A stretch of 64,000 nucleotides of DNA, from positions 112,808 through 176,807 of the IMG/VR virus record IMGVR_UViG_3300032285_004073. One strand, 5' to 3'. The notes beneath the pieces are model-generated. The model ran no database searches and had not been told where the DNA came from. It saw nothing but the letters and a program-made list of their open reading frames with translations. Origin of the DNA: a virus. Numbering within the stretch: position 1 is the stretch's first letter; every line of letters starts with the position of its first letter. A program made the translations under genes and the position numbers. Positions 9,655 to 54,040 of the stretch are shown piece by piece.

Positions 9655-10161
9655 ATGGCAACTATTCACATAGATAATTTAATTAACCCTCGTCAAGTTA
9701 ATTCAAAGGCTACAGTTTTGACTCAACCTAATAAACCAACTGTAGCTGTTTATACAGATTTACACTTAGATTTATCCGAAATTTATAATATTGGAATAGG
9801 AACAAATCCACAAAAATCTAATGATATTAAAGTAGATAATGATGCAGCTGCTATAAAAAATTCTTTATATAATATTTTTACAACTATTCCCGGACAAAAA
9901 ATATTAAATCCTTCTTTTGGTTGTAATCTTAATCAATTTGTATTTGAAGAAGTATCTGAAATTAAAGGTAAAATAATAGGTGATACTATTTTAAATGCTA
10001 TTAATGTCTATGAACCCAGAGTTCAAGTCCTAAATATACAAGTATATCCTTTACCAGATCAACTGATGTATTACATTATTATGTCATATCAAATGGTTGG
10101 GATAGCTAGCACATTTTCAACGCAAATACAAATATTTCCAAATAATATCTTAATAGTATGA
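9655..10161 (+). CDS. gp25: Baseplate wedge subunit, gp25-like
   Basis: D..AIKNSL.NI..T.PG....NP.FG..L....FE......I...I..YEPRV. Confidence 0.9.
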   Translation: MATIHIDNLINPRQVNSKATVLTQPNKPTVAVYTDLHLDLSEIYNIGIGTNPQKSNDIKVDNDAAAIKNSLYNIFTTIPGQKILNPSFGCNLNQFVFEEVSEIKGKIIGDTILNAINVYEPRVQVLNIQVYPLPDQLMYYIIMSYQMVGIASTFSTQIQIFPNNILIV

Positions 10162-11957
10162 GTAACATCCCTTCCACACCAAATGATTATGTAGCCTTTG
10201 ATGCTACTAATATTAGCGATTTAATAATCAATCGTTTAAATCAAGGTCAGGTATTCACTGATCAAAATTATCAGGGATCTAATATGTCTGCTATTATAGA
10301 CATTATTAGTTATTCTTTTAGTACCTTATTATTTTATCTTAATAAAACAGCTTCAGAAAGTCTTTTTTCAGAAGCTCAGGTGTATGAAAACATGAATAGA
10401 ATTGTTAAACTTTTAAATTATAATCCTCTTGGTAGAATTACACAAAACGTACCTTATACTTTAAACTCTTCATCTTCCTTACCAGCTGGGAACTATATAA
10501 TCCCTCGTTACAGTTATATAAAAGTAGGAGCTGATACGTATTCATTTAATACAGACATAGCTTTTACAAATTCAGCAAACGGAGTAATTGAATTACAAAA
10601 TGTAAATTCTGATTTTTTCCTTTACCAAGGCCAATTTCAAGAATATCCTATATATTCGGCTCAAGGAATTAATAATGAAATACTTTATATTAGCTTGGGA
10701 TCTGACACTTATGTAGACCATTTTAATTTATTTGTTTATGTTAAAGATGTAAACACCGGATTATGGACTCAATGGAAACAAACTCCTAATTTATTTTTAA
10801 ATAAATCCACAGATAAAAATTATGAAATAAGATTTAATGCAAATAAAAATTATGAAATTAAATTTGGTGATAATATTAACGGATCAGCATTAAATGATGG
10901 CGACAAAGTCTTGGTATATTATTTAAATATAAATCCAAACGCTACAGCATTAGCAGCCAATACATTAAACAAATTACCAATTGCTCTCTATAATAGTGTA
11001 AATTACAATCAAATTTTAAATAACACTATTTCTAACCCAACATATATAATACCTCAAAATTATTTAAAATATGTAACTATTAATAATGATTATCCTTCTA
11101 ATCCTTATTCTGAAGAGGAAAGCGTTGATAGCATAAGAAATAACGCACCTAAAAATTTTAGTTTCCAACAAAGATTGGTCACAGCTAATGATTTTCAATC
11201 GTATATAAATTCAAATTATGCTCATTTATTTGCCAATAGTTCCGTAGTTAATAATGACGATTATTTAAGTGGCCATATAAAATATCTATATAACATAGGT
11301 ATAGATTCTCCGCAATCTGATAATAATATTTTATACAGCCAAATTAAATTTGCGAATAGTTGCAATTTTAATAATGTATACGTTTATCTTGTTCCTAAAA
11401 ATTCCACACAACAATACGTAGCAGCTTCGCAAAAGGAATTTATAATATCTGAACTACAAGAAAAAAAGGTTTTAACATCAGAAGTTGTGATTATAGATCC
11501 GGTTTATATGGCTTTAGATTTCTATGCCAAATCACCTTATTCTAAACCTTCAACTAATGACATTAATAATAGTAAACTTTTAATTTACAAACAATCTCAT
11601 AGTAGAAGATCTCCAGCTGGGATTCAAGCTGATGTAATAGCTTTAATTAAAAAGACATTTAATAATCAGACATCGACATTAGGTCAAATGATTGATTTGC
11701 ATAAATTGACAAATGATATTTTAAATATTGATGGAGTAGATCATATTCAAACATATAGAAGTGATACAGATTCTTATGCAGAAGGTATTTCCCTTTTAGT
11801 TTGGAATAATTCTTATCCTCAATTAGACGTTTATACAACATCTCAAAATATACAATTACAATACTTTCAATTTCCAGTATTTAATAACATAAACAATTTA
11901 ATTAATAGAATTCAAATTGTTGATAACAGTGGTGTAATTCAAGTTTCGGATTACTAA
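10158..11957 (+). CDS. gp6: Baseplate wedge subunit, gp6-like
   Basis: FTD.NY.GSN.S.IID..SY, ESLF..A, Y.I.FGD...G, ES.DSIR.NAP..F..Q.R.VT..D. Confidence 0.9.
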   Translation: MSNIPSTPNDYVAFDATNISDLIINRLNQGQVFTDQNYQGSNMSAIIDIISYSFSTLLFYLNKTASESLFSEAQVYENMNRIVKLLNYNPLGRITQNVPYTLNSSSSLPAGNYIIPRYSYIKVGADTYSFNTDIAFTNSANGVIELQNVNSDFFLYQGQFQEYPIYSAQGINNEILYISLGSDTYVDHFNLFVYVKDVNTGLWTQWKQTPNLFLNKSTDKNYEIRFNANKNYEIKFGDNINGSALNDGDKVLVYYLNINPNATALAANTLNKLPIALYNSVNYNQILNNTISNPTYIIPQNYLKYVTINNDYPSNPYSEEESVDSIRNNAPKNFSFQQRLVTANDFQSYINSNYAHLFANSSVVNNDDYLSGHIKYLYNIGIDSPQSDNNILYSQIKFANSCNFNNVYVYLVPKNSTQQYVAASQKEFIISELQEKKVLTSEVVIIDPVYMALDFYAKSPYSKPSTNDINNSKLLIYKQSHSRRSPAGIQADVIALIKKTFNNQTSTLGQMIDLHKLTNDILNIDGVDHIQTYRSDTDSYAEGISLLVWNNSYPQLDVYTTSQNIQLQYFQFPVFNNINNLINRIQIVDNSGVIQVSDY

Positions 11958-11962
11958 AATAG

Positions 11963-14900
11963 ATGCAAGCTACTCAGGATCCATTAATATTAAACGAATC
12001 AATTTATTTTGATTATTCCCCTCCTCCTACTTTTTCTGGGCATTATAATAGGCATCCTTTTAGAATTCACATAACATCTTCTCATAGCGATCAACATATT
12101 ATTTCTTTAGATGCAAAATATTCAAGATCTTACAACCCTCAACCTAATCCTAATAAATGGTCTTTTTTAAGACCTGAATATAGATTTTTAGATTTAAGTG
12201 GCAATAAAATTAATTACATAACCACTCAAGATACACCATTTTATATTGGTTCAGACGGTAATTTAAATAATGTTAGCGGAACCTTTATTGGTGTTAGTGG
12301 GTTTGCGGAATTTTATTTTATAGATGATATTTATAATTTTGACTTAGCCATAAACAATCAACCTTATACTACTATTATAGCTACTCTACAAACAAGTGGT
12401 ATAAATTATTTTTTCAATAACAATGAATATATTTCTACCTCATATGCCAATAGTTTAGCAACAGCATATCAACCTCATATTTTTTATTATCGAAATCCAG
12501 ATTATATAAAAATATCAGAAAATGGCGGTAGAGATTTTATTAACCCAAGATGGTCTGCCACAACACAACCAATTGTGTTTACTCTTAATTGGAATGGAAA
12601 TTATATCTACAATGATGTAAACATACCAACCTATAATGAACCTTATAATTTTTGTCATTATTTCCCCAATTCTCAAAATCAACAAATACAAATTAAAGCT
12701 AATACAGTTGGCGTAAGTTCCAATTTTAATGATAATCTAGTAATATCCTATAGTAATAAAGATGGTTATCGTTCTCAGAGTTATTGTAAGACATATTTTA
12801 ATATACCCAATAGTCAAACATCTCTCGGAGCTTATATTACAGCATCTGTTAATTTTGATTCTGGTCTAGATTTTACTGGAAATGCGTTTAGTCCCAAGAT
12901 TTGGATATCAAATCCTAATGCTGGTACAGTGACTATTGCTGAGTATAATGACCCTAGCATTTTTAATACTACAGATCCTAACTTTACATCGACTCAATTT
13001 AAAAATTTTAATGTACCTATTGTTATAAATCCAGATTATACCAAAGATAATTTTTCCACAATAGGATTTCATGGCATTAATAGTATAGCAGTTTTACCTC
13101 CTCCGGATTTTAAAGCATGGGCTTGTGACGGTGAATTAAATTACCTTTACAAATTTTCCACAGAGGGAAGTATAATTTCTGCAATTGATATTAACCAAAT
13201 AGTAAAAACACAAAAATTAGGTTTCTTTGTAGAAAATCAAGTTTCTCCAGCTTCTATTACATTAGATAGCAATCTTAATATTTGGATGACTTTATATGAT
13301 ACAGCATCTGTTTTAAAATTAGATCCTAATGGAAATTTCTTATTTGCTTTAAACCCATTATCATCCATCAATTATACACTTCCTCCTAATATAAATTATA
13401 ATTGGTATCTCTACAATGAAATGCAGCCATTATCTGGTGAGGTGCAAAACTTTATTGAACCTACCTATGTTGAAACAGATTTAAACAATAATATCTGGGT
13501 AACATATTCCAATTACGCTAGTGGATTTTTAATAAAATATGATACCAATGGCAATTTACTTAAAACTATTAGTTATCCAGTTCTTTCAAGTCCACAAGAT
13601 TTAGTAGTAGATAATGCAAATAATGTATGGGTTGCATTATCTAATAACTCTGGTGACACTTTAGGCACTTTGGAAAAAAGAAATTCCTTTGGAGTATTAC
13701 TAAGCTCCTTTGGAAATATTACTGGATTGAATAATTTGACTTTAGATTTAAATCAAAATATTTGGTTCACATATTCATATTCTAGAATAGCAACTATAGA
13801 TAATAACACCGCAAATATAACAACAATTAATGTATCAGATTATGATAATACACCTTTAGTAATTCCGAGAGACAACAATTCTCAAATATTTTATTCCTCA
13901 TCACCTCAGACCAAAATAGTATCCAATAGTATTAGTAACATCAACAGAATTATTTATAGCCTTTCAGATGTACCTGCAACAACACCAAGTGGAACTATTG
14001 CCAATTCCTCTTATACAACAGCTAGCCAACAAATTTTAGCAGCAAAGGCTCAGATTCAGCAAGCAGTTATTAACTATGCGGTGACTAATTACCCAAATGC
14101 CATGAGTAATAATCCAACTCTTACAGCGTATTGCTACAGAGATACTGGATTTATAGTAGATGCATTAGCTGCGGACATAGCCAATAATACAAATCATCGA
14201 TCAATTGAAGTGGGTAATTTTTACTACAAAGGTGTAACAAAAAATGTTAATGTACCTTATGGACAATTAATTCTGCCTTCTTACGAATTATCAGCAACAA
14301 TAAATTCTATTAATTACATTGCATCTTATATTAATTCCAATGTAGTTACAGATACTTCTAGAAAAACTGATGTGACATCACGTATGGCTGATGTAGTATA
14401 CCCTCTTCAAACCGGAGGAGCTTTAAAGGCATATTCTCCTGCTGGATCACCTACTACAGACGATATTAATATAGCCAATCTTATAGCTGCTAATAGATCT
14501 GCCCTTCAAGATAAAGTTTCTTATTATGTAATACAAAAGGGATATTTGTTTGATAGTGCTCTTTTACAAATTTGTAAAAGAGATGTTGGGTTGATTGTAG
14601 ATGCTATATACAATGATCTAGTATCCGGAGTCAATGCTAGGTCTATAGAATACGGCTTGGCATATTGGAATGGAAGCACTACAAGATTGCCAGACAGTCT
14701 TGTACCTAATCATAAAGAAAAAACAACAGATACATTTAATTATCTTAACACTTGTATTAAAGATCTTTTAGTTGCTAATGGGTATTTACAAGACACAACA
14801 CCTTCTCCTTACAATATATATGCAGATAAAGGATTAACTGTACCAGATGAATATACATCAGAAACAGCTTTGGAAGGTATAGCTGCCGATTATAAGGGCA

Positions 14901-15952
14901 ATATATATGTTATAAATTCTGTTGAAAATCAAGTATATATGTTTAATTCAACAACTAAGAATTTTACAAATAAATTTTATATTAATCCTCAAGGATTTAA
15001 TTTCTTCTACCAGAACAATATTAATAGCATAGATTATAATGTTTGGACTAAATCAGCTCAAGCTTATGGTGACTGGACTGGGTTTAGATGGATTAATAAA
15101 TATTATAAATATCAAAACTCAAGAATAATATCTTTAACTGGAAGATCTACTAATTTAGATTTTTACGGAAATCATGCGTTTGATGTTTTTAAAGTTAATG
15201 AAAATTTTGACATGGCTGGTCAAATGAAATCTTTAGCTTTTATGCCGGTTTTACAAGATAGCCCAGTTTTCTTTGATAATTTCTTAGGATCTATTTTCGG
15301 TAAAGCTCCTTTTAATCATAATGATCTAGGAATAGAAAGTTATGAAAAGATTGCAAATTTCTTACCCAATAATGTAGATATAGACACTTGTGGTATAGAC
15401 GAACTTTACAACTTAGCCAATTCAGTAAATCAACATGATGGTGATGACTTTACTTTAACCTATCCAAATGAAATTAAAAGATTAATGAATTTAGCTTCCA
15501 TAAATCAATCTATACTTTGGGGTACAACTTCCAAAAATCAAAATTACTTTAAGTCTCCGTCCACAGATGGAGTCTTGAATAGGGGTAAATTGTTAACTAA
15601 CAATTACACAGTTTCTGCTGGAACTCCTGTAATATTAAATACTAGATCACTTAACAGTTATGATCTAATACCCACAGGACCTATCAACGGTTCAACCAAT
15701 TATCCCTTATCTACATTAATTTCTTACATAGGTTTAGATCCACTTAATTGGGAAACATATTACAACATATATGAATTTATACCTGGATTTAGTAAAACGC
15801 TAACTGAAGGTATTATAGATTGGAATAATCCTCAAACAACCATTACTCAAAGTCAATCTTCTCATTATAATTGGGTTGGAAATGAACAAACGTTAGATAA
15901 ATTATTTTCATATAATTTATATAACGGATTAGGATTACTAAAGAATTATTAA
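11963..15952 (+). CDS. Large baseplate wedge protein (gp7-like position): beta-propeller repeats, two inserted phycobiliprotein-like domains, C-terminal wedge-like domain
   Basis: Follows gp6; repeats such as ITLDSNLNIWMT, VETDLNNNIWVT, LVVDNANNVWVA, IAADYKGNIYVI; CYRD and CKRD repeats; C-terminal FLG.IFG...YEKIANF...DIDTC.ID.L. Confidence 0.75.
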   Translation: MQATQDPLILNESIYFDYSPPPTFSGHYNRHPFRIHITSSHSDQHIISLDAKYSRSYNPQPNPNKWSFLRPEYRFLDLSGNKINYITTQDTPFYIGSDGNLNNVSGTFIGVSGFAEFYFIDDIYNFDLAINNQPYTTIIATLQTSGINYFFNNNEYISTSYANSLATAYQPHIFYYRNPDYIKISENGGRDFINPRWSATTQPIVFTLNWNGNYIYNDVNIPTYNEPYNFCHYFPNSQNQQIQIKANTVGVSSNFNDNLVISYSNKDGYRSQSYCKTYFNIPNSQTSLGAYITASVNFDSGLDFTGNAFSPKIWISNPNAGTVTIAEYNDPSIFNTTDPNFTSTQFKNFNVPIVINPDYTKDNFSTIGFHGINSIAVLPPPDFKAWACDGELNYLYKFSTEGSIISAIDINQIVKTQKLGFFVENQVSPASITLDSNLNIWMTLYDTASVLKLDPNGNFLFALNPLSSINYTLPPNINYNWYLYNEMQPLSGEVQNFIEPTYVETDLNNNIWVTYSNYASGFLIKYDTNGNLLKTISYPVLSSPQDLVVDNANNVWVALSNNSGDTLGTLEKRNSFGVLLSSFGNITGLNNLTLDLNQNIWFTYSYSRIATIDNNTANITTINVSDYDNTPLVIPRDNNSQIFYSSSPQTKIVSNSISNINRIIYSLSDVPATTPSGTIANSSYTTASQQILAAKAQIQQAVINYAVTNYPNAMSNNPTLTAYCYRDTGFIVDALAADIANNTNHRSIEVGNFYYKGVTKNVNVPYGQLILPSYELSATINSINYIASYINSNVVTDTSRKTDVTSRMADVVYPLQTGGALKAYSPAGSPTTDDINIANLIAANRSALQDKVSYYVIQKGYLFDSALLQICKRDVGLIVDAIYNDLVSGVNARSIEYGLAYWNGSTTRLPDSLVPNHKEKTTDTFNYLNTCIKDLLVANGYLQDTTPSPYNIYADKGLTVPDEYTSETALEGIAADYKGNIYVINSVENQVYMFNSTTKNFTNKFYINPQGFNFFYQNNINSIDYNVWTKSAQAYGDWTGFRWINKYYKYQNSRIISLTGRSTNLDFYGNHAFDVFKVNENFDMAGQMKSLAFMPVLQDSPVFFDNFLGSIFGKAPFNHNDLGIESYEKIANFLPNNVDIDTCGIDELYNLANSVNQHDGDDFTLTYPNEIKRLMNLASINQSILWGTTSKNQNYFKSPSTDGVLNRGKLLTNNYTVSAGTPVILNTRSLNSYDLIPTGPINGSTNYPLSTLISYIGLDPLNWETYYNIYEFIPGFSKTLTEGIIDWNNPQTTITQSQSSHYNWVGNEQTLDKLFSYNLYNGLGLLKNY
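14012..14770 (+). other. Two tandem phycobiliprotein(globin)-like domains inside the baseplate protein
   Basis: YCYRDTGFIVDALAADIANNTNHRSIEV (Cys724) and ICKRDVGLIVDAIYNDLVSGVNARSIEY (Cys871) align by eye with alpha-phycocyanin KCARDIGYYLR.VTYCLVAGGTGPLDEY, with flanking helices in register. Confidence 0.6.
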
Positions 15953-25600: not shown

Positions 25601-26410
25601 CAACTTGGTATCGGTAATACAACTAACCCTCCTTCATTTACACCAGTATTATCCGCAGCAAATGCCCCAATAGGTAATGTAAAAGAAATTCACGGTAATA
25701 GTTATGGTGGAGGTTATATAAGCTGTACATATTTCTTATGTAATGATGGATCCCTTTGGTCTACAGGTCATAATAGTTATGGTGCTCTTGGACTCGGTGA
25801 TACTACTCAAAGAGTGTATGCTACTAAAATTACAGCTTTATCAAATTATAATATAACTAAATTTAGGACTATGACTAGACAAGAAGATTATGGTTTTTGT
25901 GTTGCTAGTGATGGTACTAATATATGGACCTGGGGCAGAAACGATTTTGGTCAATTAGGAAAAGGTGTAGCTAATAATACTGCCAATCCGACTCCTTTCT
26001 TAGTTAATACTGTTCCTTTAAATTATTCCAATACCCCCAACACTACAACTTATGTAGGTAATGCCGCTACTACTTGGAGTGGAATTACTATTAAAGATAT
26101 AGCCATTGGTCAAGCATGTTTTGCCATATTAACAAACAATGGTAAGGTTTACAGTTGTGGATATAATAAAGTAGGACAATTAGGATTATCTAATGGTCTA
26201 GACTATGCTGCGTTTTTAACTCATGTTAATATACCGACAGATAATGCAGCTTCTATAGCGATTTGTGGACCCACTGTAAATCAATTTTTACAGATTATCA
26301 CATCTTCCGGCAAAATCTATGCTAGTGGTTATAATGGCCACGGAGAATTGGGCACTGGTGATACAGGAGGTTATTATTACCTACCCACTCAAGTTTACAA
26401 AGGGTTATAA
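22628..26410 (+). CDS. Tail fibre/spike protein with C-terminal RCC1/BLIP-II-like propeller
   Basis: VGI.T..P...LTV.G.I repeats, GGG.NN.I beta-roll repeats, then W.WG.N..GQLG RCC1 repeats. Confidence 0.8.
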   Translation: MSNRFHSKFHRSNHHTYTNSANPDAGHDPIASPDSPFLGDFVLKGGLSALVPSGSKYSATFLGAGVGVGTITPNTSLTVVGSISASNNIIVGYNNQAVDTSSIGGGFNNSISSPYSYIGDGSNNSISNSYSYIGGGNNNNISGRYSFIAAGSSNYTNFPNTFILGSGLSANQANFTFVNNLSTPGSVIANSISSRFIYLLHSNPNDGINPVVFLGENGNGSLSGFNTSYDEIQNKYFISTFFGDGSIVPYTTAFLIDQSGNVGINTNSPNNKLTVNGSISGLGNLYINSNEYITGSSYVSGNQLLAGSSYISGSQYLSGAYSVKGHIYASGSQYLSGSLFTGNNVSINTTNQTNALTVKGSISASDTLYGNTINCATLNATTLNATNEFVTNKTTVYFSSSTGNSLILGNQFNLTPLTLSGNAVLLNAFNSSTLNPVFYMTSNGYVGINTNNPSANLTVVGNINASSDISTSGSLLASKPIVVSTSPTSNLNIAPLSATGSATGSVYSSIQNIVAGVSASTDYTMYNDQGNYLDIGINSSQYNGNLYYPKFNIVGPGDSYIFNTANNIVMGTGSSSGNLLFFTGGTSSSNERMRITNSGNIAIGTTTTDSNSVLTIKGDVSINGNLSYNNSNNGPVINGSVRNIILGSAGQGYSSAPTITIDPPTDVLDNNIQATATCTINNGAINSITITNPGRGYITHPNITISGGGSPTQPAVMWAMADVRATSNPRGRSSYASTVLFSDGRLFSAGYNNSIPNGYSVSGTSYVNPVNVPIYTSSDTNPSYFVIPETYSLNTPAGYQNIPAGRPVEYWNTGDHLYVLDSNGNLWSGGENANGELGLGNNTSQYILTRIIFNQNSSTYGQLLNTNNQIVRFSVSKDADRSGRTSCIALAANGAIYTWGYNGWGQLGIVNSKGTLNTAAHNSPVCLNNYVGGNTGVGGGTSITVPSAPSAPYVFPKQYKNVYMIGDGYTSCSFILKNDGSVLAAGYNAFGQLGIGNTTNPPSFTPVLSAANAPIGNVKEIHGNSYGGGYISCTYFLCNDGSLWSTGHNSYGALGLGDTTQRVYATKITALSNYNITKFRTMTRQEDYGFCVASDGTNIWTWGRNDFGQLGKGVANNTANPTPFLVNTVPLNYSNTPNTTTYVGNAATTWSGITIKDIAIGQACFAILTNNGKVYSCGYNKVGQLGLSNGLDYAAFLTHVNIPTDNAASIAICGPTVNQFLQIITSSGKIYASGYNGHGELGTGDTGGYYYLPTQVYKGL

Positions 26411-46304: not shown

Positions 46305-49300
46305 TTAAGATTTAAATAACCCGTAATTGTTACCAAATACATCAGTTCTCCACTGATTTAAGACGCCCTTATTAGTTAGTAAAGAAGTAATTCTATCATT
46401 ATATGAATTAAAACTTAATTCGTTTCTGAAAGTAGGAGGATAGTTAGGCCCTCCAGTCCAAACTTTAAAATTATTAGGATCCCAAAATTGAAAATTATCA
46501 CTTTGAGTACTGAGACCTATTTGATTTTTAGTATCAATTTCGTAACTAGATTGATAAGGGACTAATTTTTGATTATTAACTGTATCTATAATAGTACCAG
46601 CTACCTTTCCAGCATAGTATGGTTGAAACATCCAACTATTATCTACATGATTAATAATAACCGGTGCTAGTTGATCATTTTTTGATAAACCTCTATTTCT
46701 TGGACCATATTTCTCTATATCTAAAAACAACAATTCAGCACTTATAGAATTGAAATAAGTTACACTATTAAGATCTAAACTTATATTATATCCTTTACCT
46801 CTGTAATAAGAAGTACCAAATCTATCTGGCGACATATAACCACCCGTCTGGGTTTTTGAAACCATATTAGAAGGGAATGATACTGTAGCAACTGTAGGGA
46901 AATGCACATTATCTAAATTAGCATAAGGTTCCATTGCTTCTGTTACTAAACTAGAAACGACCGGGAAAAAACTATTATTGCAAAAATTAATATTATATAA
47001 ATTTTGTGTATATTTAAATGGATTTCTAGAATAGTAATTATACTTTGCTGGTTTGAAATCTGAATAACTTTCTAATGTTAAATCACTCTTTTCGTCTGTG
47101 GAATAAGTTACTAAATTTAAAAGAGTAGAAGGTGTCAAATTATAACAAGAGTTAGGAGCCTCTTTATTAATAATCAGTTTATTCCATTGAATATTAAAAG
47201 TAGGAACAGTAAATGGTAAAAATTCTTTCCAATCAATGTTACGATTGCTTCTGTTTATATATTCTATATAACAGTTATTATTTAAAACCATCTGAGATAT
47301 TTCTGGTTGGCTTATAGGAACATAATCATTTACAAATCTAATTTGACCTGCAAAGCTCATGGTTTGCTTATTAAAATTGTTAACCGAATCCGTATTTACA
47401 TATACTTTGCCCCAGAAAGGTTTAGCTCCAAAATTAACTCCTACAGCACTTAAACTATATTGGTTAGTACCATAATCCCAGCCATCCAATTTGACATTAA
47501 TCGGAAATGATATACTAGGTGTATTGAAACTACCTTTCAAAGCATCTGTATGTATAACTGAAGAACGATGACTATATTTGATATAATCTCCAGGTCTTAG
47601 AACCATATCCGATGGAATAAAAGTTTGTGTCCAACTACCGTTTGAAGATAATATAGCCTTATACCAAGAAGGTATCCCAGGACCACAACCTAATAATTTT
47701 AAAGAATAATATTGAATAAAATTATTCAAATCACCGTCTGAGTCTAATAGATAATTTCGTAGATTAAAATAACAACCATCAGAAGACATGGTCTCCATTA
47801 TTTGGTTATAACTTGCATAGTAACCTATATCCATAGAGGTTATTTCTACGCCTGTGTTTTTAATTTGTAAAGCTATTGGTATAGCTTGACCTATGTTATT
47901 AGTTTCTTGACCATCACTAAATATTAGAATTTTTTTAGAAGCATTTGGTCTAGGGCAATTATCATAACTTGGTAATTCTGCAACCTGATTTATAGTTTCG
48001 TTTAAATCTATACAAGCTCCTGATAAATTTGAAACAGAACAACGATTATCTGCAGGATAATTTGTATAAAGAATTGTCTGAGCTAACTGTAATGCATCAG
48101 ATATATTTGTAGAGAAATTGGGATAATCTTCTATATTAGTTTGATTTATTTTATCTAATATATAATATATATCTTTAGTTAAAAATGATAAAAGTTTAAC
48201 ATTACTATCAAAAGATATTAAAGATATTTTAACATCAGCTTGAGTATTGTTTATAGAGACCGCCAAAGACTTTAATAATTGTTTAACAGTGTCAATATCA
48301 AATCGTTGACTTCTACTATTGTCTAACAATACAACTAAATCCACTTGACCAGAAAAATTATTAGGACAATTGATGCTTAAATTATTATATACATGATTTA
48401 TTACAAGATAAGGAACAGTAGCATTTGTTGATGCTGTACTGATTTTAAGAGGATTCCTATAATAGGTATATCTTCTCCCTGTCTTTAATATCATAGGCTT
48501 ATTGTTCCCAGTTTGCCATTTACCAGTACCAAAACCTATATCTAAATCCTTAGTACCATCTATCTGGAAAAAAGAAAATTGAGGACTATTATAAACATTT
48601 AAACCTCTAGTATCAATCCAATTATCTATTTTAAAACTAGAACCAAGACCAAAAGGATCAGCGAAAAGATAATCTGCCATTCCATAATAATCTTTAAGAG
48701 TCTGTCCTTGATTGCCTATAGGTGAATGATTAACAGCTTTGCAAGTACAAGGATGAGTATTAAGAGGAAAAGATTTTGTATTGTTTAAAGGATTTGGATT
48801 TTGGTAATCTTGATTAGTATAAAAATCATGAGGAAATGATTTACCATAAGCACAATCACTAGAATGTTTACAATAATAAAATACATCTTCTGCTGGAGTA
48901 TCTGGTCCTAACCAAATAAATGAAGTATATCCTCCTTCATTAACTTTAAAATTGAGAGAGCTTTGTATAGAACTGTCTATGTAATTAGCGCAATGTGTAG
49001 CTGGAGTGTCGTATACTGGAATAGAATTAACAATGTCGAGTTGACTCAAAGAACCACTTCCTAACCAAGCGGCTTCAATAGGATCGTTATTTACACCAAA
49101 ATTTAATTTATAAATTACATCTGCTTCATTTAAAGTAGTACCTGCAACAGCTCCGGACATAGCATATCCGTTATGTATGTCTTTTAACGCAATGGGTAAA
49201 CAAACTTCTTTATCTAGGGTTGCTGGGACATTAGATGTAGTACTATCAATAACAGTTAAAGGCCAATATATATTATTATCACCTACTGATATAGGTAAAT

Positions 49301-50795
49301 TAGTATAATCAAATTTATATAAAAATGCTTGTTCTGTTGCACTTAAAGAATTGTCTGAATAAACGGAATTAATTCTTAAGTTATTTTCTCTTTTAATAAT
49401 ATTGTCTGCAACATCAGAAAATTTACCAGCTAAAGATCCTTGATTTACTAAACTAGTTTGATTGAGATAAAGATCTGAACCAGAGGACAAAGGAGTAGAA
49501 GATGTGTAATATTTTGATAATATCTTTTGTTTAATAGTAGGATCAAGAACTTCAAATAAAGGTTGAGACTCATCATTTATACTATATTCTTTAAAATCTA
49601 AACTCTTGTAATCTAATTTAAAACCTACATAAGGAAATAAAAATGAAGTAGTGTCATTAGCCTTTAATGTTTTAGCAAGAGTATCATAAACTGTTTGTTG
49701 TGATATACCTTTTAACCAAGCACCTTCTATGACTCCATTTTTATCAGTAAAGATTAAATCGGAATCTAAATAGCTATTACCTGTAACATAACGATTCAAT
49801 GTAAAATTAGAATCATTAATATTAAGAGGTTCAAATATATTAGTAAAAACATCTTCGTTAGTAATTTTATCGCCACTAGGCCAATAGAACCAATTATTTC
49901 CATATTGGAAATCTAAATTCATTATATAATCAGGAGGTCTATTATCCTCGGTTAAAGGTACAGCAGTTAACCCATAAACATTTTCTCCTAGATATTTTTG
50001 AGAACCTATAATTTGATTATTGATTAAAGATGTAAAAGAAGAAGAAAGGGCTAGAGTCGAAAGAGTGGAAAACGATGTAAGGTATTGATTAAAAATTTTA
50101 GATAGAGGAGTAGGAGCAACTCTTGAAAGGAATCGAGTTGATAACAATCCGTTTATTTCTGAATCAGATAAATCAGTAAAAGGTTCTGCATCTGTAAAGC
50201 TTATATATTCATCTATAGAAATTGAAGGATCTGAATCATGGTAATTGTTTTTATCATATAATTCTTCTATTTCTATAAAGAAATCTTCTTTAACTTCCGA
50301 CAACTCCGGATAAAATGATGCTAATGGTGATACTGGAACTCTAGTATATGAATAATCTTTTTTTGTAAAATTGTTTAAAACATATTCATATAAAACATTT
50401 TCTAAACCTAAATTAGAACCATTTAAACTATCTCTGGTTTTAGTTCTTTTTAAAAATTCTCTTTTGGATATTATTATTTGAGATATCTCTTTGAGCTTAT
50501 GTGCAATATAAGGAATAACATAAATTAGATCTTCATCCTTTGTATAGTCAATATCTGATAAGAACAAATCTCTTTCGTCTTGATTAAAAAGATGGGTCAG
50601 ATCTTTTATTAATTGTATATATTGTTGTTTAACACTTTGAGATATCGTATAAGATGAATTTTTAGTATTACTATTCTGATACCAGGAATTAAGATAATCT
50701 AAATAGACTCTTTGAGATGTATCACCAGAACTGCCTTGTTCATTAGCCCAGTCTTGATACGATAAAGGTGTAGAAGTGTTTAACGAAATACTCAT
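46305..50795 (-). CDS. Large virion structural protein with an inserted VWA domain (~47700-48345)
   Basis: DLVVLLDNSRS (MIDAS DxSxS), TNISDAL..A, KKILIFSDG. Confidence 0.75.
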   Translation of the reverse strand: MSISLNTSTPLSYQDWANEQGSSGDTSQRVYLDYLNSWYQNSNTKNSSYTISQSVKQQYIQLIKDLTHLFNQDERDLFLSDIDYTKDEDLIYVIPYIAHKLKEISQIIISKREFLKRTKTRDSLNGSNLGLENVLYEYVLNNFTKKDYSYTRVPVSPLASFYPELSEVKEDFFIEIEELYDKNNYHDSDPSISIDEYISFTDAEPFTDLSDSEINGLLSTRFLSRVAPTPLSKIFNQYLTSFSTLSTLALSSSFTSLINNQIIGSQKYLGENVYGLTAVPLTEDNRPPDYIMNLDFQYGNNWFYWPSGDKITNEDVFTNIFEPLNINDSNFTLNRYVTGNSYLDSDLIFTDKNGVIEGAWLKGISQQTVYDTLAKTLKANDTTSFLFPYVGFKLDYKSLDFKEYSINDESQPLFEVLDPTIKQKILSKYYTSSTPLSSGSDLYLNQTSLVNQGSLAGKFSDVADNIIKRENNLRINSVYSDNSLSATEQAFLYKFDYTNLPISVGDNNIYWPLTVIDSTTSNVPATLDKEVCLPIALKDIHNGYAMSGAVAGTTLNEADVIYKLNFGVNNDPIEAAWLGSGSLSQLDIVNSIPVYDTPATHCANYIDSSIQSSLNFKVNEGGYTSFIWLGPDTPAEDVFYYCKHSSDCAYGKSFPHDFYTNQDYQNPNPLNNTKSFPLNTHPCTCKAVNHSPIGNQGQTLKDYYGMADYLFADPFGLGSSFKIDNWIDTRGLNVYNSPQFSFFQIDGTKDLDIGFGTGKWQTGNNKPMILKTGRRYTYYRNPLKISTASTNATVPYLVINHVYNNLSINCPNNFSGQVDLVVLLDNSRSQRFDIDTVKQLLKSLAVSINNTQADVKISLISFDSNVKLLSFLTKDIYYILDKINQTNIEDYPNFSTNISDALQLAQTILYTNYPADNRCSVSNLSGACIDLNETINQVAELPSYDNCPRPNASKKILIFSDGQETNNIGQAIPIALQIKNTGVEITSMDIGYYASYNQIMETMSSDGCYFNLRNYLLDSDGDLNNFIQYYSLKLLGCGPGIPSWYKAILSSNGSWTQTFIPSDMVLRPGDYIKYSHRSSVIHTDALKGSFNTPSISFPINVKLDGWDYGTNQYSLSAVGVNFGAKPFWGKVYVNTDSVNNFNKQTMSFAGQIRFVNDYVPISQPEISQMVLNNNCYIEYINRSNRNIDWKEFLPFTVPTFNIQWNKLIINKEAPNSCYNLTPSTLLNLVTYSTDEKSDLTLESYSDFKPAKYNYYSRNPFKYTQNLYNINFCNNSFFPVVSSLVTEAMEPYANLDNVHFPTVATVSFPSNMVSKTQTGGYMSPDRFGTSYYRGKGYNISLDLNSVTYFNSISAELLFLDIEKYGPRNRGLSKNDQLAPVIINHVDNSWMFQPYYAGKVAGTIIDTVNNQKLVPYQSSYEIDTKNQIGLSTQSDNFQFWDPNNFKVWTGGPNYPPTFRNELSFNSYNDRITSLLTNKGVLNQWRTDVFGNNYGLFKS

Positions 50796-50801
50796 TTAAG
50801 A

Positions 50802-50954
50802 TTAATTTTGTGGTATGGTAATCGGAGTAGATGTTTGATTACCCTTATCGTCTGTACAGCATTGTGAAATATTCAAAACATATACCGGAAAACTTCCTTT
50901 AACGACTTTATTATTTTTAATATAAGATAATAATTTAATAATAGTCTGATTCAT
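50802..50954 (-). CDS. Small hypothetical protein, 50 aa (not in the ORF track)
   Basis: MNQTIIKLLSYIKNNKVVKGSFPVYVLNISQCCTDDKGNQTSTPITIPQN; preceded by TAAGTA. Confidence 0.5.
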   Translation of the reverse strand: MNQTIIKLLSYIKNNKVVKGSFPVYVLNISQCCTDDKGNQTSTPITIPQN

Positions 50955-50963
50955 ATTATCAAA

Positions 50964-50969
50964 TACTTA
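50964..50969 (-). promoter_or_regulatory. Late-promoter-like TAAGTA heading the minus-strand structural block
   Basis: TACTTA on the plus strand, back-to-back with the heme oxygenase promoter. Confidence 0.5.
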
Positions 50970-50970
50970 C

Positions 50971-50998
50971 TTGACATAGCAATTTTTTTTAATATAAT
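50971..50998 (+). promoter_or_regulatory. Consensus sigma70 promoter of the bilin cassette, probably leaderless
   Basis: TTGACA-N16-TATAAT, ATG 6 nt downstream. Confidence 0.8.
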
Positions 50999-51004
50999 AG
51001 CTGT

Positions 51005-51577
51005 ATGAATGATAAAAATTTACAACAACGCTTAAAAGAAGAGACTGCAGAGTTACATCGTGAGTCGGAACAACACCCTTTGATGCAATCATTTGTAACA
51101 GGTTCTTTTAAAAAAGAACACCTACTGGATGTATTAATTAATCTCCTTCCTATCTATCAGGTTGTAGAACAACGACTTATCTCTAAAGAAATTATTAACA
51201 ATCCAGAACTCAAGAGAAGTATTAATATTCAAAAAGATATTGATAAACTTGTGCAAGACATAGGTTTAGGTAATCGACAAGTAAGAAAGATTACATCACA
51301 TTGGTTATCTTTTTCTTGGTCTAGAAAATTAGATCTCTTAAAGGGTGATCTCTATCTCAGATGGTTGGCAGATTTCTATGGAGGAAGAATTCTTGCCAAG
51401 TCTCAAGCACCCTATAATGAAACATATGCTTCAGAAAACCCAGGTGCAGTTATTACTACAGTAAGATATATTTTAGATCAAACCTCAAATGATACTACAG
51501 ACGACGAAATTGTAGAGCATACTAAGGGATTTTTTAAATTTCATATTCAGTTATTTGAAGATATATGGACCAATTAA
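51005..51577 (+). CDS. ho1: Heme oxygenase (Ho1/HemO-like)
   Basis: LKEETAELH18RESE (proximal His helix); LYLRWLADFYGGRIL matches HAYTRYLGDLSGGQIL; F...I.LFE. Confidence 0.9.
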   Translation: MNDKNLQQRLKEETAELHRESEQHPLMQSFVTGSFKKEHLLDVLINLLPIYQVVEQRLISKEIINNPELKRSINIQKDIDKLVQDIGLGNRQVRKITSHWLSFSWSRKLDLLKGDLYLRWLADFYGGRILAKSQAPYNETYASENPGAVITTVRYILDQTSNDTTDDEIVEHTKGFFKFHIQLFEDIWTN

Positions 51578-52209
51578 GACAGTATTTTGATACCATTACA
51601 CAAGACTTTAATAGTCTTTTAGGTTATTCAAAAACAGGACCTAGTAATTTTATTAGACCAAATTGGATTAACAATTACTACGAACATCATAATCCAGCGT
51701 TAAGACATGCCCATCTTCAGTATTATAAAACTGATAGAATTGGTATTGTACACCTCAACGTATTTCCACAACCCACAATTGATTATCCTATATTAGGTGC
51801 AGACTTAATTGAAATTGGTGGCAAGATTACTGGGTTCTTTCTTGATGTAACACCTATTCATAAAAATCAAATTATACAAAAATCTCTTATACAATTTAAA
51901 AGTATATTGAAGTCACCTCAAAGAAAATTACCAGAATGGGCTAATTTCTTTAGTGAAAATTTTATCTGTATTACACCAGATGAAAATGAAATTGATTATA
52001 TTATGAATAGTTCGAGATATATTATACGTAACTATCTTATTAATCTTAAATTGTATAAAGACAAATATAAGGAAAATATAAAAAAGCAAAATGATTATTG
52101 TATTGGACAAAAGAAAAACGATAAGACATTTAAAGCATTAGCAGCTGATATCGGCGAAGAAGAAGCTAAAAATTTCCTTAATAATTTTATGTTCCCAGAA
52201 ATAGGCTAA
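51565..52209 (+). CDS. Ferredoxin-dependent bilin reductase, PcyA/PcyX-like
   Basis: RHAHLQ...VH63LNVFP...PILGAD80...DVTP, RKLPEWA.FFS, QNDYC..QKKNDKT..AL....G..EA..F....F align with PcyA. Confidence 0.9.
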   Translation: MDQLRQYFDTITQDFNSLLGYSKTGPSNFIRPNWINNYYEHHNPALRHAHLQYYKTDRIGIVHLNVFPQPTIDYPILGADLIEIGGKITGFFLDVTPIHKNQIIQKSLIQFKSILKSPQRKLPEWANFFSENFICITPDENEIDYIMNSSRYIIRNYLINLKLYKDKYKENIKKQNDYCIGQKKNDKTFKALAADIGEEEAKNFLNNFMFPEIG

Positions 52210-52218
52210 GTATCAATA

Positions 52219-53230: not shown

Positions 53231-54040
53231 ATGGATACATACACACTAAATCAAGCAATTCAGATGGCGCCCGCAATCGCCGCAACGGAGCCTTCACCGA
53301 TCGTTTCTGATCGTTACAGCTTCATCAACACCGGAGAGTTCCTCGAGAAGGCAATCGATTCCGGTTGGACCATCCGTGATGTTCGCCAGAGCAGGAACCG
53401 TTTCGGGATGCACAAGGTGGACCTCATCCAGACCCAGTACAAGGACAGTAGCACAGTGGGAGAGGGTATGCCTCAGATCAGCATCATCAATAGCCACGAT
53501 CGCTCCAAGCGATTTCAGGTTATGATGGGCTTTTTCCGTTTGGTTTGTTCCAATGGTCTTGTGATTGCCACAGGAGCTAATCTTAATATTCGAGCCATGC
53601 ACCGCTTCGGTGATGATAAGCTCTCTACTCTCATGAGCACCATGGAGCAGGGTATTAAGCAGTTCAGCGTCATTGGTCAGAAGGTTGATCAGTTCCGCGA
53701 TCGTATTCTCTCTCAGGAAGAGAAGAATGCCCTGGCGCGCTTCGCTCACTACATCAGGTTCCGTTATCGCCAGAATCTTCCTACCTCCATTAAGCCAGAT
53801 GCTCTCCTTGGAGTTCGTAGGGATGTGGATAAGGGAGATGATCTCTGGAGGGTTTACAACACCATCCAGGAGAATATGACTCATGGAGGTCTTAACCTTG
53901 GACGCGGTCTCACCCGTCTTGAGGATGATACTCGTTTCAATAGTGAGTTCTGGGTCGGAGCTGAGGCAGCTCTTACGCACCGCGGAGCTGATTTCGAACA
54001 CACGCTCAAGTCCCTCTTCCCTAAGAAGGAGAGGGCATAA
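53231..54040 (+). CDS. DUF932/DUF945 family protein (phage/plasmid)
   Basis: SDRY.FI.T, NSHD.S..FQ...G.FR.VCSNG, DLW.V.N..QEN motifs; GC-rich, C-ending codons. Confidence 0.85.
   Translation: MDTYTLNQAIQMAPAIAATEPSPIVSDRYSFINTGEFLEKAIDSGWTIRDVRQSRNRFGMHKVDLIQTQYKDSSTVGEGMPQISIINSHDRSKRFQVMMGFFRLVCSNGLVIATGANLNIRAMHRFGDDKLSTLMSTMEQGIKQFSVIGQKVDQFRDRILSQEEKNALARFAHYIRFRYRQNLPTSIKPDALLGVRRDVDKGDDLWRVYNTIQENMTHGGLNLGRGLTRLEDDTRFNSEFWVGAEAALTHRGADFEHTLKSLFPKKERA

What the first reader, a model, noticed from the sequence alone, without database searches (positions are those of the whole stretch)
50971..52209. Self-contained heme oxygenase + bilin reductase cassette beside the virion genes, with no photosynthesis genes in view
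Seen: a consensus TTGACA-N16-TATAAT promoter drives two overlapping genes (13-nt overlap). They sit back-to-back with the promoter of the minus-strand tail block. Established: HO opens heme to biliverdin IXa; PcyA makes phycocyanobilin; phage PebS and PcyX make phycoerythrobilin. Such cassettes are known in cyanophages and in some phages thought not to infect cyanobacteria, and their purpose there is unresolved. No psbA, hli, petF or CpcT/CpeT-type lyase gene is recognisable in this window. Inference: the product is used by a phage protein, most plausibly the CxRD domains at 14012-14770, with host ferredoxin as electron donor.
Basis: partly seen in the sequence, partly recalled or inferred. 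Interest (0 to 1): 0.8.

Follow-up and report, generated by a model that had tools for sequence, protein, structure and literature searches.

The report
Phage bilin cassette feeding pigment-binding baseplate
An uncultured lake-type relative of phage T4 carries its own two-gene kit for turning heme into a bilin pigment, and comparison with other phages suggests the pigment is loaded onto phycobiliprotein-like domains in the phage's own baseplate, which could explain why phages of non-photosynthetic bacteria make such pigments.

Summary
Window 51005-51577 encodes a heme oxygenase (HO). Window 51565-52209 encodes a ferredoxin-dependent bilin reductase (FDBR). They overlap by 13 nt, behind the only perfect TTGACA-N16-TATAAT in the window. 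The held 176.8-kb record (CheckV 82%) has no psbA/psbD, hli, plant-type ferredoxin, CpeT, CpeS, GAF or AlaS-type gene.

The FDBR belongs to a distinct metagenomic clade on the PcyA/PcyX branch. It keeps the His88 and Asp105 equivalents but has Gln at the Glu76 site, where 44 of 54 clade members have Glu.

The 'CxRD' domains are real relatives of phycobiliproteins by profile search, AlphaFold model and fold searches, and they sit in a gp7-like baseplate protein.

The key new result is comparative. All six near-complete phage genomes found through this domain have a bilin source: four carry HO+FDBR, one HO alone, and one is a psbA/hli cyanophage. Three complete relatives without the domain have neither gene. 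The reverse does not hold: pelagiphage Mosig and record G002 have the cassette but not the domain.

In cultured cyanophages the domain is present in S-PM2, P-HM1 and P-HM2, whose adsorption needs light. It is absent from P-SSM2 and P-SSP7, which adsorb in the dark.

The scan noted a similar cassette on another genome (e1-5375513) and these domains here (e1-5831405). Nothing has been tested biochemically.

The parts
50971..50998 (+). Sigma70-type promoter TTGACA-N16-TATAAT. The -10 box ends 6 nt before the HO start codon, so the mRNA would be leaderless or nearly so.
   Evidence: Similar boxes lie upstream of HO in relatives.
51005..51577 (+). Heme oxygenase, 190 aa. Proximal His18 is at 51056-51058. 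The distal helix reads LADFYGG, with the Asp and the Gly-Gly kept.
   Evidence: Pfam PF01126 E 1.7e-12. Alignment to human HO-1 chains. His invariant in 15 phage HOs.
51565..52209 (+). Ferredoxin-dependent bilin reductase, 214 aa, on the PcyA/PcyX branch. Gln52 (51718-51720) sits at the PcyA Glu76 site, His63 (51751-51753) at His88 and Asp80 (51802-51804) at Asp105.
   Evidence: Pfam PF05996 E 6.3e-22. PDB PcyA 2g18 E 7.4e-19 and PcyX 5owg E 9.3e-17. Alignments and tree.
51565..51577 (+). 13-nt overlap of the HO stop with the FDBR start (translational coupling). The same overlap occurs in L094, L096, L097 and L098.
11963..15952 (+). gp7-like baseplate protein P0001 (1329 aa). It follows a gp6-like wedge gene and is the proposed acceptor of the bilin.
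   Evidence: phrog_219 for the upstream gene and phrog_4527 for the repeat region. P-HM2 has the same gene order, with the repeats inside its gp7.
14012..14377 (+). Phycobiliprotein-like globin domain 1, CYRD motif, Cys724 at 14132-14134.
14453..14818 (+). Phycobiliprotein-like globin domain 2, CKRD motif, Cys871 at 14573-14575.
   Evidence: AlphaFold pLDDT 90.4. Foldseek top hits are all phycobiliproteins. VIA-align Z 12.9 to allophycocyanin.
10158..11957 (+). gp6-like baseplate wedge subunit, which fixes the neighbour P0001 as the gp7 position.
   Evidence: phrog_219 E 2.7e-34.
50802..50954 (-). Small ORF heading the minus-strand tail block, preceded by a TAAGTA late-type motif.

Best explanation
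The region is a mobile, two-gene bilin-synthesis operon with its own promoter. Host RNA polymerase would read it from a sigma70-type promoter, which suggests early expression (inferred). The heme oxygenase opens host heme to biliverdin. The translationally coupled reductase, using a host ferredoxin, reduces biliverdin to a phycobilin. Most clade members carry the full PcyA triad, so they should make phycocyanobilin. This phage has Gln at the Glu76 site, so it may stop at a phytochromobilin-like, A-ring-reduced product (inferred). The most likely sink is the phage's own gp7-like baseplate protein. It carries two phycobiliprotein-like globin domains that keep the Cys-x-Arg-Asp bilin-attachment site, at Cys724 and Cys871. 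Attachment would probably need no lyase, as reported for bacterial BBAG globins. The result would be a pigmented baseplate, and its use may be light sensing at adsorption (speculative).
For: Enzymes:
- Both pass their Pfam cut-offs, match solved PcyA, PcyX and HO-1 chains and keep the catalytic His/Asp and the proximal His.

Operon:
- The overlap and promoter are conserved in relatives, and the unit moves as one between genome positions.

Acceptor:
- A profile of 123 repeats finds only phycobiliproteins among its top 40 PDB hits. The best E is 1.6e-4, with the Cys aligned on Cys84.
- The model has pLDDT 90.4.
- Foldseek and VIA-align place bilin-binding globins on top, with Z 12.9.
- Cys, Arg and Asp are kept in 92%, 93% and 95% of about 1,590 repeats.

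Co-occurrence:
- Near-complete genomes with the domain: G005, G078, G080 and G085 carry HO+FDBR, G083 carries HO only, and G046 is a psbA/hli cyanophage.
- Complete relatives without the domain (G066, G068, G071) have neither gene.
- The FDBRs of domain-bearing phages fall in at least four groups only 25-35% identical to one another, which argues against simple shared descent.

Other acceptors:
- No other acceptor or lyase family was found in the genome: PF00502, GAF, CpeT, CpeS.

Literature:
- BBAG-1 and BBAG-3 globins with a CXRD motif bind bilins without lyases (PMC10151467).
- The purpose of such phage cassettes is open, and BBAG-like partners have been suggested (PMC11480375).
Against: - No experiment supports any step.
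- The cassette occurs without the domain in the complete Mosig genome. In G002 (77% complete) the gp7 ortholog lacks exactly the insert.
- G001 and G058 orthologs also lack the insert, though those records are under 50% complete.
- Pfam's phycobilisome model does not hit the domains.
- Fold-search E-values are weak (0.2-0.7), and helical models can reach Z of about 13 by chance.
- Many domain-bearing records without HO/FDBR are fragments and cannot be scored.
- The cassette and the acceptor gene lie 35 kb apart and seem to belong to different expression classes.
- 18% of the genome is not held.
Confidence: 0.55

Rival explanations
1. Iron and heme economy. The heme oxygenase frees iron from host heme for phage iron enzymes, and the reductase only removes biliverdin so that the oxygenase keeps turning over. 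The bilin itself has no target.
For: Mosig and G002 carry the cassette without any CxRD domain. In Mosig the cassette lies beside four 2OG-Fe(II) oxygenases and a ferrochelatase. In G083 a lone HO lies next to the di-iron RNR small subunit. Iron supply has been discussed in the literature (PMC11480375).
Against: Iron release needs no FDBR, yet HO and FDBR are always coupled in 16 of 17 HO-bearing records. The residues that set regiospecificity are conserved or switch only between Glu and Gln. This reading does not explain why HO is found in every near-complete domain-bearing, psbA-free genome and in none of three complete domain-free relatives.
Confidence: 0.2
2. Classical cyanophage auxiliary gene. 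The host is a cyanobacterium and the cassette tops up chromophore for host phycobilisomes or photoreceptors.
For: The nearest cultured relatives by major capsid protein are cyanophages, at about 35% identity. Among cultured phages the CxRD domain is found only in cyanophages.
Against: psbA/psbD, hli, Fer2, CpeT and CpeS are absent from the 82%-complete record. psbA and hli are also absent from the complete relative G005, and psbA from the complete HO+FDBR genomes G080 and G085. Every psbA/hli record with the domain lacks HO/FDBR. The FDBR lies outside the cyanophage PcyA clade.
Confidence: 0.1
3. Host manipulation. The bilin is delivered to a host phytochrome, BBAG or other bilin sensor in a heterotrophic host, to reprogram it during infection.
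For: PcyA from the freshwater phage CB_2 can load a phytochrome in vitro, and such roles are discussed (PMC11480375). Heterotrophic bacteria have bilin-binding globins (PMC10151467). The promoter type suggests early expression.
Against: The host is unknown, so no target is in view. This reading does not predict the link with virion CxRD domains.
Confidence: 0.1
4. Decaying or inactive passenger genes with no present function.
For: Gln replaces the PcyA Glu76 equivalent. The HO is short at 190 aa, with Ala at the human Gly139 position.
Against: Both frames are intact and score above their Pfam cut-offs. The catalytic His and Asp are invariant in 54 of 54 clade members, and the operon structure is conserved across about 50 homologs.
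Confidence: 0.03

Closest known systems
Marine phage hemO-pcyX cassette (PcyX EBK42635, PDB 5owg; Pelagibacter phage Mosig EXVC030M)
   Same: It is a two-gene unit with HO upstream of, and overlapping, an FDBR of the PcyA/PcyX branch. It sits in a T4-like phage without photosynthesis genes.
   Different: Identity is about 28-30%. PcyX has Asp at the Glu76 site and the window has Gln. The window's family forms its own clade. Mosig has no CxRD domain.
Freshwater phage CB_2 hemO + pcyA + alaS (PMC11480375)
   Same: The phage is freshwater-type with a presumed heterotrophic host. Its FDBR is described as lying between PcyA and PcyX and was shown to make phycocyanobilin. The purpose is unresolved.
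   Different: No AlaS-type gene is in the held record. The CB_2 sequence could not be brought in, so membership of the same clade is untested. The window has Gln, not Glu, at the Glu76 site.
Cyanophage ho1 / pcyA / pebS auxiliary genes (P-SSM2, P-SSM4, P-RSM6)
   Same: The enzyme families are the same and they occur in T4-like phages.
   Different: Those genes are usually not a coupled HO-FDBR pair. They come with psbA, hli, petF and cpeT, which are absent here. The window FDBR lies outside the cyanophage PcyA and PebS clades.
Bacterial pre-PcyA / HO / BBAG gene clusters (Rockwell, Martin and Lagarias 2023, PMC10151467)
   Same: Bilin synthesis is paired with a phycobiliprotein-like globin that carries a CXRD motif, in a non-photosynthetic setting. 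Attachment needs no lyase.
   Different: Here the globin is a repeat inserted in a virion baseplate protein 35 kb from the enzymes. The FDBR keeps His88, so it is not pre-2 or pre-3 by that residue rule. There are no V4R or Fe-S partners.

Membership tests
Heme oxygenase (PF01126, HO-1 type) | Profile match above the curated cut-off | tested here: met
   48.1 bits against a cut-off of 23, covering profile positions 2-204.
Heme oxygenase (PF01126, HO-1 type) | Proximal heme-ligand His and distal-helix Asp-x-x-Gly-Gly | tested here: met
   His18 aligns with human HO-1 His25. LADFYGG aligns with L(G/A)DLSGG, with Ala at the Gly139 position. The His is invariant in 15 phage HOs.
Heme oxygenase (PF01126, HO-1 type) | Converts heme to biliverdin IX-alpha | not testable with these tools
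   Needs an enzyme assay.
Ferredoxin-dependent bilin reductase (PF05996) | Profile match above the curated cut-off | tested here: met
   78.8 bits against a cut-off of 31. Six-frame search gives 77.8 bits.
PcyA | Catalytic triad Glu76, His88, Asp105 (Synechocystis numbering) | tested here: not met
   His63 and Asp80 are present but Gln52 replaces the Glu. 44 of 54 clade members do have Glu.
PcyA | Falls inside the cyanobacterial/cyanophage PcyA clade | tested here: inconclusive
   The quick ML tree puts the window family in its own clade (SH-aLRT 99), apart from cyanophage PcyA. No cellular PcyA, AX-clade or pre-PcyA sequences could be included, and the root lies on a very long PebS branch.
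PcyX | Asp at the Glu76 site (Asp55) and clustering with PcyX | tested here: not met
   The window has Gln. Mosig, G014 and G080 have Asp and cluster away from the window family.
PebS / PebA branch | Sequence affinity to PebS or PebA | tested here: not met
   PebA 2x9o scores E 1 and 12 bits, against PcyA at 71 bits. The PebS group is separated by the longest branch in the tree.
Phage hemO-FDBR cassette | HO directly upstream of, and coupled to, an FDBR in a phage genome | tested here: met
   The 13-nt overlap. Adjacency holds in all 17 FDBR-bearing records examined.
Phycobiliprotein / BBAG bilin-binding globins (for the proposed acceptor domains) | Globin fold of the phycobiliprotein type | tested here: met
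   pLDDT 90.4. The best VIA-align hit is allophycocyanin 8or7_A with Z 12.9, rmsd 2.4 A over 106 residues. All top Foldseek hits are phycobiliproteins.
Phycobiliprotein / BBAG bilin-binding globins (for the proposed acceptor domains) | CXRD motif aligned on Cys84, Arg86, Asp87 | tested here: met
   Profile alignment to CpcA, best E 1.6e-4. Conservation is 92%, 93% and 95% over about 1,590 repeats.
Phycobiliprotein / BBAG bilin-binding globins (for the proposed acceptor domains) | Match to Pfam Phycobilisome PF00502 | tested here: not met
   No hit at E up to 10, either on the genome or on the domains alone.
Phycobiliprotein / BBAG bilin-binding globins (for the proposed acceptor domains) | Covalent bilin binding | not testable with these tools
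   Needs co-expression, a zinc blot and mass spectrometry.

The most novel reading that the evidence does not exclude
The phage builds a light sensor into its baseplate. It makes its own bilin because its heterotrophic host cannot supply one, and loads it onto phycobiliprotein-like domains in gp7, so that light gates the baseplate switch or adsorption. The same domains, loaded with host bilins, would be the long-sought cause of light-dependent adsorption in cyanophages such as S-PM2 and P-HM1/2.
Probability: 0.3. Interest if true: 0.95.

Novelty: new variant of a known kind. Interest (0 to 1): 0.8.

Why it matters
Heme oxygenase plus bilin reductase cassettes in phages that do not infect cyanobacteria have been known since about 2016 and shown to be active. 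Their purpose is still openly unresolved (PMC11480375). This locus, with the comparative data collected here, offers a concrete and cheaply testable answer: the pigment is for the virus particle itself.

If that is right, it would be the first chromophore-bearing phage structural protein. It would widen the known range of phycobiliprotein relatives. It would also link to a second open question, namely why some cyanophages adsorb only in the light and independently of host photosynthesis (PMC6628666).

The Glu/Gln switch at the Glu76 site inside one clade is a natural experiment on FDBR regiospecificity.

Tried and rejected
- blastn of the cassette against cultured phages: no match.
- Pfam on the CxRD domains, and PF00502 on the whole genome: nothing.
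- Scan of bacterial genomes with the FDBR alignment: only one 3.4-kb contig, in a Lake Lanier 'Proteobacteria' MAG. This is too weak for a host call.
- Named cellular FDBR references (PcyA, AX clade, pre-PcyA, PebA/B, HY2, CB_2) could not be brought into the tree. A profile search returned only unnamed metagenomic proteins, and PDB chains are not available as sequences.
- A paper search for PcyA E76Q found nothing in the held library. The statement that Glu76 is needed for 18-vinyl reduction rests on PMC10151467.
Sample origin and the longer 193,758-bp contig seen could not be examined.
- ARAGORN found no tmRNA.
- A broad repeat alignment was too diverse to scan with, so a narrower one was used.
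- PHROGs on the flanking genes gave little.
- Rejected: adjacency to the tail genes as a functional clue, because the cassette sits elsewhere in relatives.
- Rejected: the domains as heme-binding globins, because no His is conserved among the repeat columns.

Full report
**What is there.**
The window is the last 64 kb of a 176,807-bp IMG/VR virus record. The record is linear, CheckV 82% complete, 31.6% G+C.
- Two ORFs on the plus strand, 51005-51577 (190 aa) and 51565-52209 (214 aa), overlap by 13 nt.
- Pfam assigns them to Heme_oxygenase (48.1 bits, cut-off 23) and Fe_bilin_red (78.8 bits, cut-off 31).
- TTGACA-N16-TATAAT at 50971-50998 is the only perfect match in the window. The chance expectation is 0.25, and 21 of 100 shuffles give at least one.
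- The -10 box ends 6 nt before the ATG, so the transcript would be leaderless or nearly so.
- Relatives also carry sigma70-like boxes directly before the HO start. Four of them keep the 13-nt overlap.
- The flanking genes are instead preceded, 11-17 nt before their starts, by TAAGTA or TAAATA motifs. These are 10-16 times enriched upstream of genes in this genome. I read them as late-type promoters; that is an inference.

**Are the enzymes intact?**
- The HO keeps the proximal His (His18, aligned with human HO-1 His25) and the distal Asp-x-x-Gly-Gly, with Ala at the Gly139 position. The His is invariant in 15 phage HOs.
- The FDBR aligns with Synechocystis and Nostoc PcyA (E 1e-14 and 7.4e-19) and with PcyX (E 9.3e-17). 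PebA, HY2 and PEBB score at noise level.
- Read off that alignment, PcyA His88 and Asp105 correspond to His63 and Asp80. Both are invariant in 54 of 54 clade members. Glu76 corresponds to Gln52.
- In the clade, 44 members have Glu and 10 have Gln. The Gln group comprises the window and its closest kin, plus one member of a second subfamily.
- Glu76 is reported as specific to PcyA and required for 18-vinyl reduction (PMC10151467). Most of the clade should therefore make phycocyanobilin. The window enzyme may stop after A-ring reduction (inference).

**Phylogeny, as far as the tools allowed.**
- About 50 homologs of 211-230 aa exist, all metagenomic.
- A quick maximum-likelihood tree rooted on PebS puts the window in a well-supported clade of 50 (SH-aLRT 99). 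That clade is separate from cyanophage PcyA, and from a group made of Mosig PcyX plus two jumbo-phage enzymes. A second subfamily (G005, G002, a Lake Lanier MAG contig) lies near the base.
- Cellular references and the CB_2 enzyme could not be added. The exact place relative to AX-clade PcyA and pre-PcyA is therefore open.

**The rest of the genome.**
- Six-frame profile searches of the held record found none of the following: Photo_RC (psbA/psbD), Chloroa_b-bind (hli), Fer2, CpeT, CpeS, Phycobilisome, GAF, or Aminotran_1_2 (AlaS type).
- The major capsid protein is about 35% identical to cyanophage gp23. The lineage is common in metagenomes, with about 600 capsid matches.
- The host remains unknown. 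The electron donor and the heme must come from it, so the cassette is not fully self-contained.

**The proposed acceptor.**
- The 1329-aa protein at 11963-15952 follows a gp6-like wedge gene. It carries two repeats of about 115 aa, with CYRD and CKRD motifs.
- The repeat is widespread. It matches 491 protein clusters, in proteins of up to 6,382 aa with up to 25 copies.
- Over about 1,590 copies, Cys, Arg and Asp are kept in 92%, 93% and 95%. No His is conserved.
- Pfam sees nothing. A profile of 123 diverse repeats, however, finds only phycobiliproteins among its top 40 PDB hits. The best E is 1.6e-4, with the Cys on Cys84.
- The AlphaFold model is confident (pLDDT 90.4, pTM 0.81, five helices).
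- All top Foldseek hits are phycobiliproteins or derived fluorescent proteins. Probabilities are 0.9-1.0 and TM reaches 0.72, but E is only 0.2-0.7.
- An all-against-all structural search ranks a far-red allophycocyanin first (Z 12.9, rmsd 2.4 A, 106 residues). A photocobilin globin and the ApcE bilin domain follow.
- I accept the homology and note the weak single-method statistics. This agrees with the earlier scan note e1-5831405, which I retested from scratch.

**Does the cassette go with the domain?**
I took two samples of viral contigs found through the domain. I tested their records for FDBR, HO, psbA and hli.

| Near-complete record (at least 90%) | Completeness | Bilin source found |
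|---|---|---|
| G005 | 100% | HO+FDBR |
| G078 | 92% | HO+FDBR |
| G080 | 100% | HO+FDBR |
| G085 | 100% | HO+FDBR |
| G083 | 99% | HO only |
| G046 | 100% | psbA and hli, no HO/FDBR |

- In G083 the HO lies between an endonuclease and the RNR small subunit.
- All six therefore have a bilin source.
- All four psbA/hli records with the domain lack HO/FDBR.
- In one jumbo lineage, the four contigs that reach the expected position, 62 kb from the domain gene, have the cassette. The four that end before it do not.
- Three complete relatives found through the capsid gene (G066, G068, G071) lack the domain, HO and FDBR.
- The FDBRs of domain-bearing phages fall into at least four groups that are only 25-35% identical to one another, with Glu, Gln, Asp or Asn at the Glu76 site. 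The pairing has therefore arisen or persisted in very different cassettes and phage types.
- Among 50,697 cultured-phage records, the FDBR appears outside cyanophages only in Mosig. The background rate is therefore very low.

**Counter-examples in the other direction.**
- Mosig (complete) has HO plus PcyX but no domain. A positive control was included in the same search.
- G002 (77% complete) has the cassette and a clear gp7 ortholog that lacks exactly residues 632-952.
- G009 carries the repeats in a different protein, so the domain is a movable module.
- The cassette also moves. It sits at three different genome positions in G000, G001 and G002/G004/G005.
- My reading: a domain-bearing phage needs a bilin source, but a bilin cassette can also serve other ends.

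**A lead from cultured phages.**

| Phage | Repeats found with the profile | Adsorption (PMC6628666, citing Jia et al. 2010) |
|---|---|---|
| S-PM2 | 11-12 | needs light, independent of host photosynthesis |
| P-HM1 | 5 | does not adsorb in the dark |
| P-HM2 | 5 | does not adsorb in the dark |
| P-SSM4 | 3 | not stated |
| P-RSM6 | 7 | not stated |
| S-SSM6b | 4 | not stated |
| P-SSM2 | 0 | adsorbs in the dark |
| P-SSP7 | 0 | adsorbs in the dark |

- In P-HM2 the repeats sit inside gp7, the baseplate wedge initiator, after gp25 and gp6. The window has the same arrangement.
- Five of five phages with a known phenotype fit. The sample is small and related, so this is a hypothesis, not a result.

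**Verdict.**
- The cassette itself is a new clade of a known kind.
- The new element is the evidence that it supplies a chromophore to phycobiliprotein-like domains of the virion. I hold this at about 55%.
- The light-sensor reading stands at about 30%.
- No paper in the held library describes phage-borne bilin-binding globins.
- The scan had noted a similar cassette on another genome (e1-5375513).

Noticed in passing
window 50993-51007: The -10 hexamer ends 6 nt before the HO start codon and no Shine-Dalgarno sequence is visible, so the HO mRNA would be leaderless or nearly so. Relatives show the same tight spacing.
   Followed up: partly
whole genome; e.g. window 50955-50970 (minus strand) and 52204-52218: TAAGTA[AT] and [GAC]TAAATA heptamers are 10-16 times enriched 11-17 nt upstream of start codons. 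They are probably the phage's late-type promoter. The cassette lacks them.
   Followed up: partly
window 51718-51720 and clade members P0003-P0015, G062: Glu and Gln alternate at the PcyA Glu76 site within one FDBR clade (44 Glu, 10 Gln). Jumbo-phage relatives have Asp or Asn. This looks like a natural series for regiospecificity.
   Followed up: partly
cultured cyanophages: S-PM2 LN828717.1 46016-48397 and 156666-160697; P-HM2 GU075905.1 54712-57459 (gp7) and 82604-83779: The phycobiliprotein-like repeat is common in giant baseplate and fibre proteins of cultured marine cyanophages. Its presence tracks the published light-dependent adsorption (S-PM2, P-HM1/2 against P-SSM2, P-SSP7).
   Followed up: partly
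L286 (G083:C1:34500-40500): A 99%-complete domain-bearing phage has a lone heme oxygenase between a non-specific endonuclease and the RNR small subunit, with no FDBR. It would yield biliverdin only.
   Followed up: partly
L003, L005, L007, L008 against window 50971-52209: The HO-FDBR pair sits at three different genome positions in related phages, each time as an intact unit. It behaves like a mobile moron.
   Followed up: yes
G002:C1:60692-63889 against window 11963-15952: The gp7 ortholog of a related phage lacks exactly the two-domain insert (residues 632-952). G005 has six repeats at the same site, and G009 carries them in another protein. This is clean domain gain or loss.
   Followed up: yes
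L114 (RFNV01000158.1): A 3.4-kb contig binned in a Lake Lanier 'Proteobacteria' MAG encodes an FDBR of the G002/G005 subfamily. It is probably phage DNA in the bin, and is the only hint of habitat or host.
   Followed up: no
window 46305-50795 (minus), 22628-26410, 53231-54040: The tail-block giant protein has a von Willebrand A domain. Another virion-region protein has RCC1 repeats. A DUF932 gene lies just downstream of the cassette.
   Followed up: no
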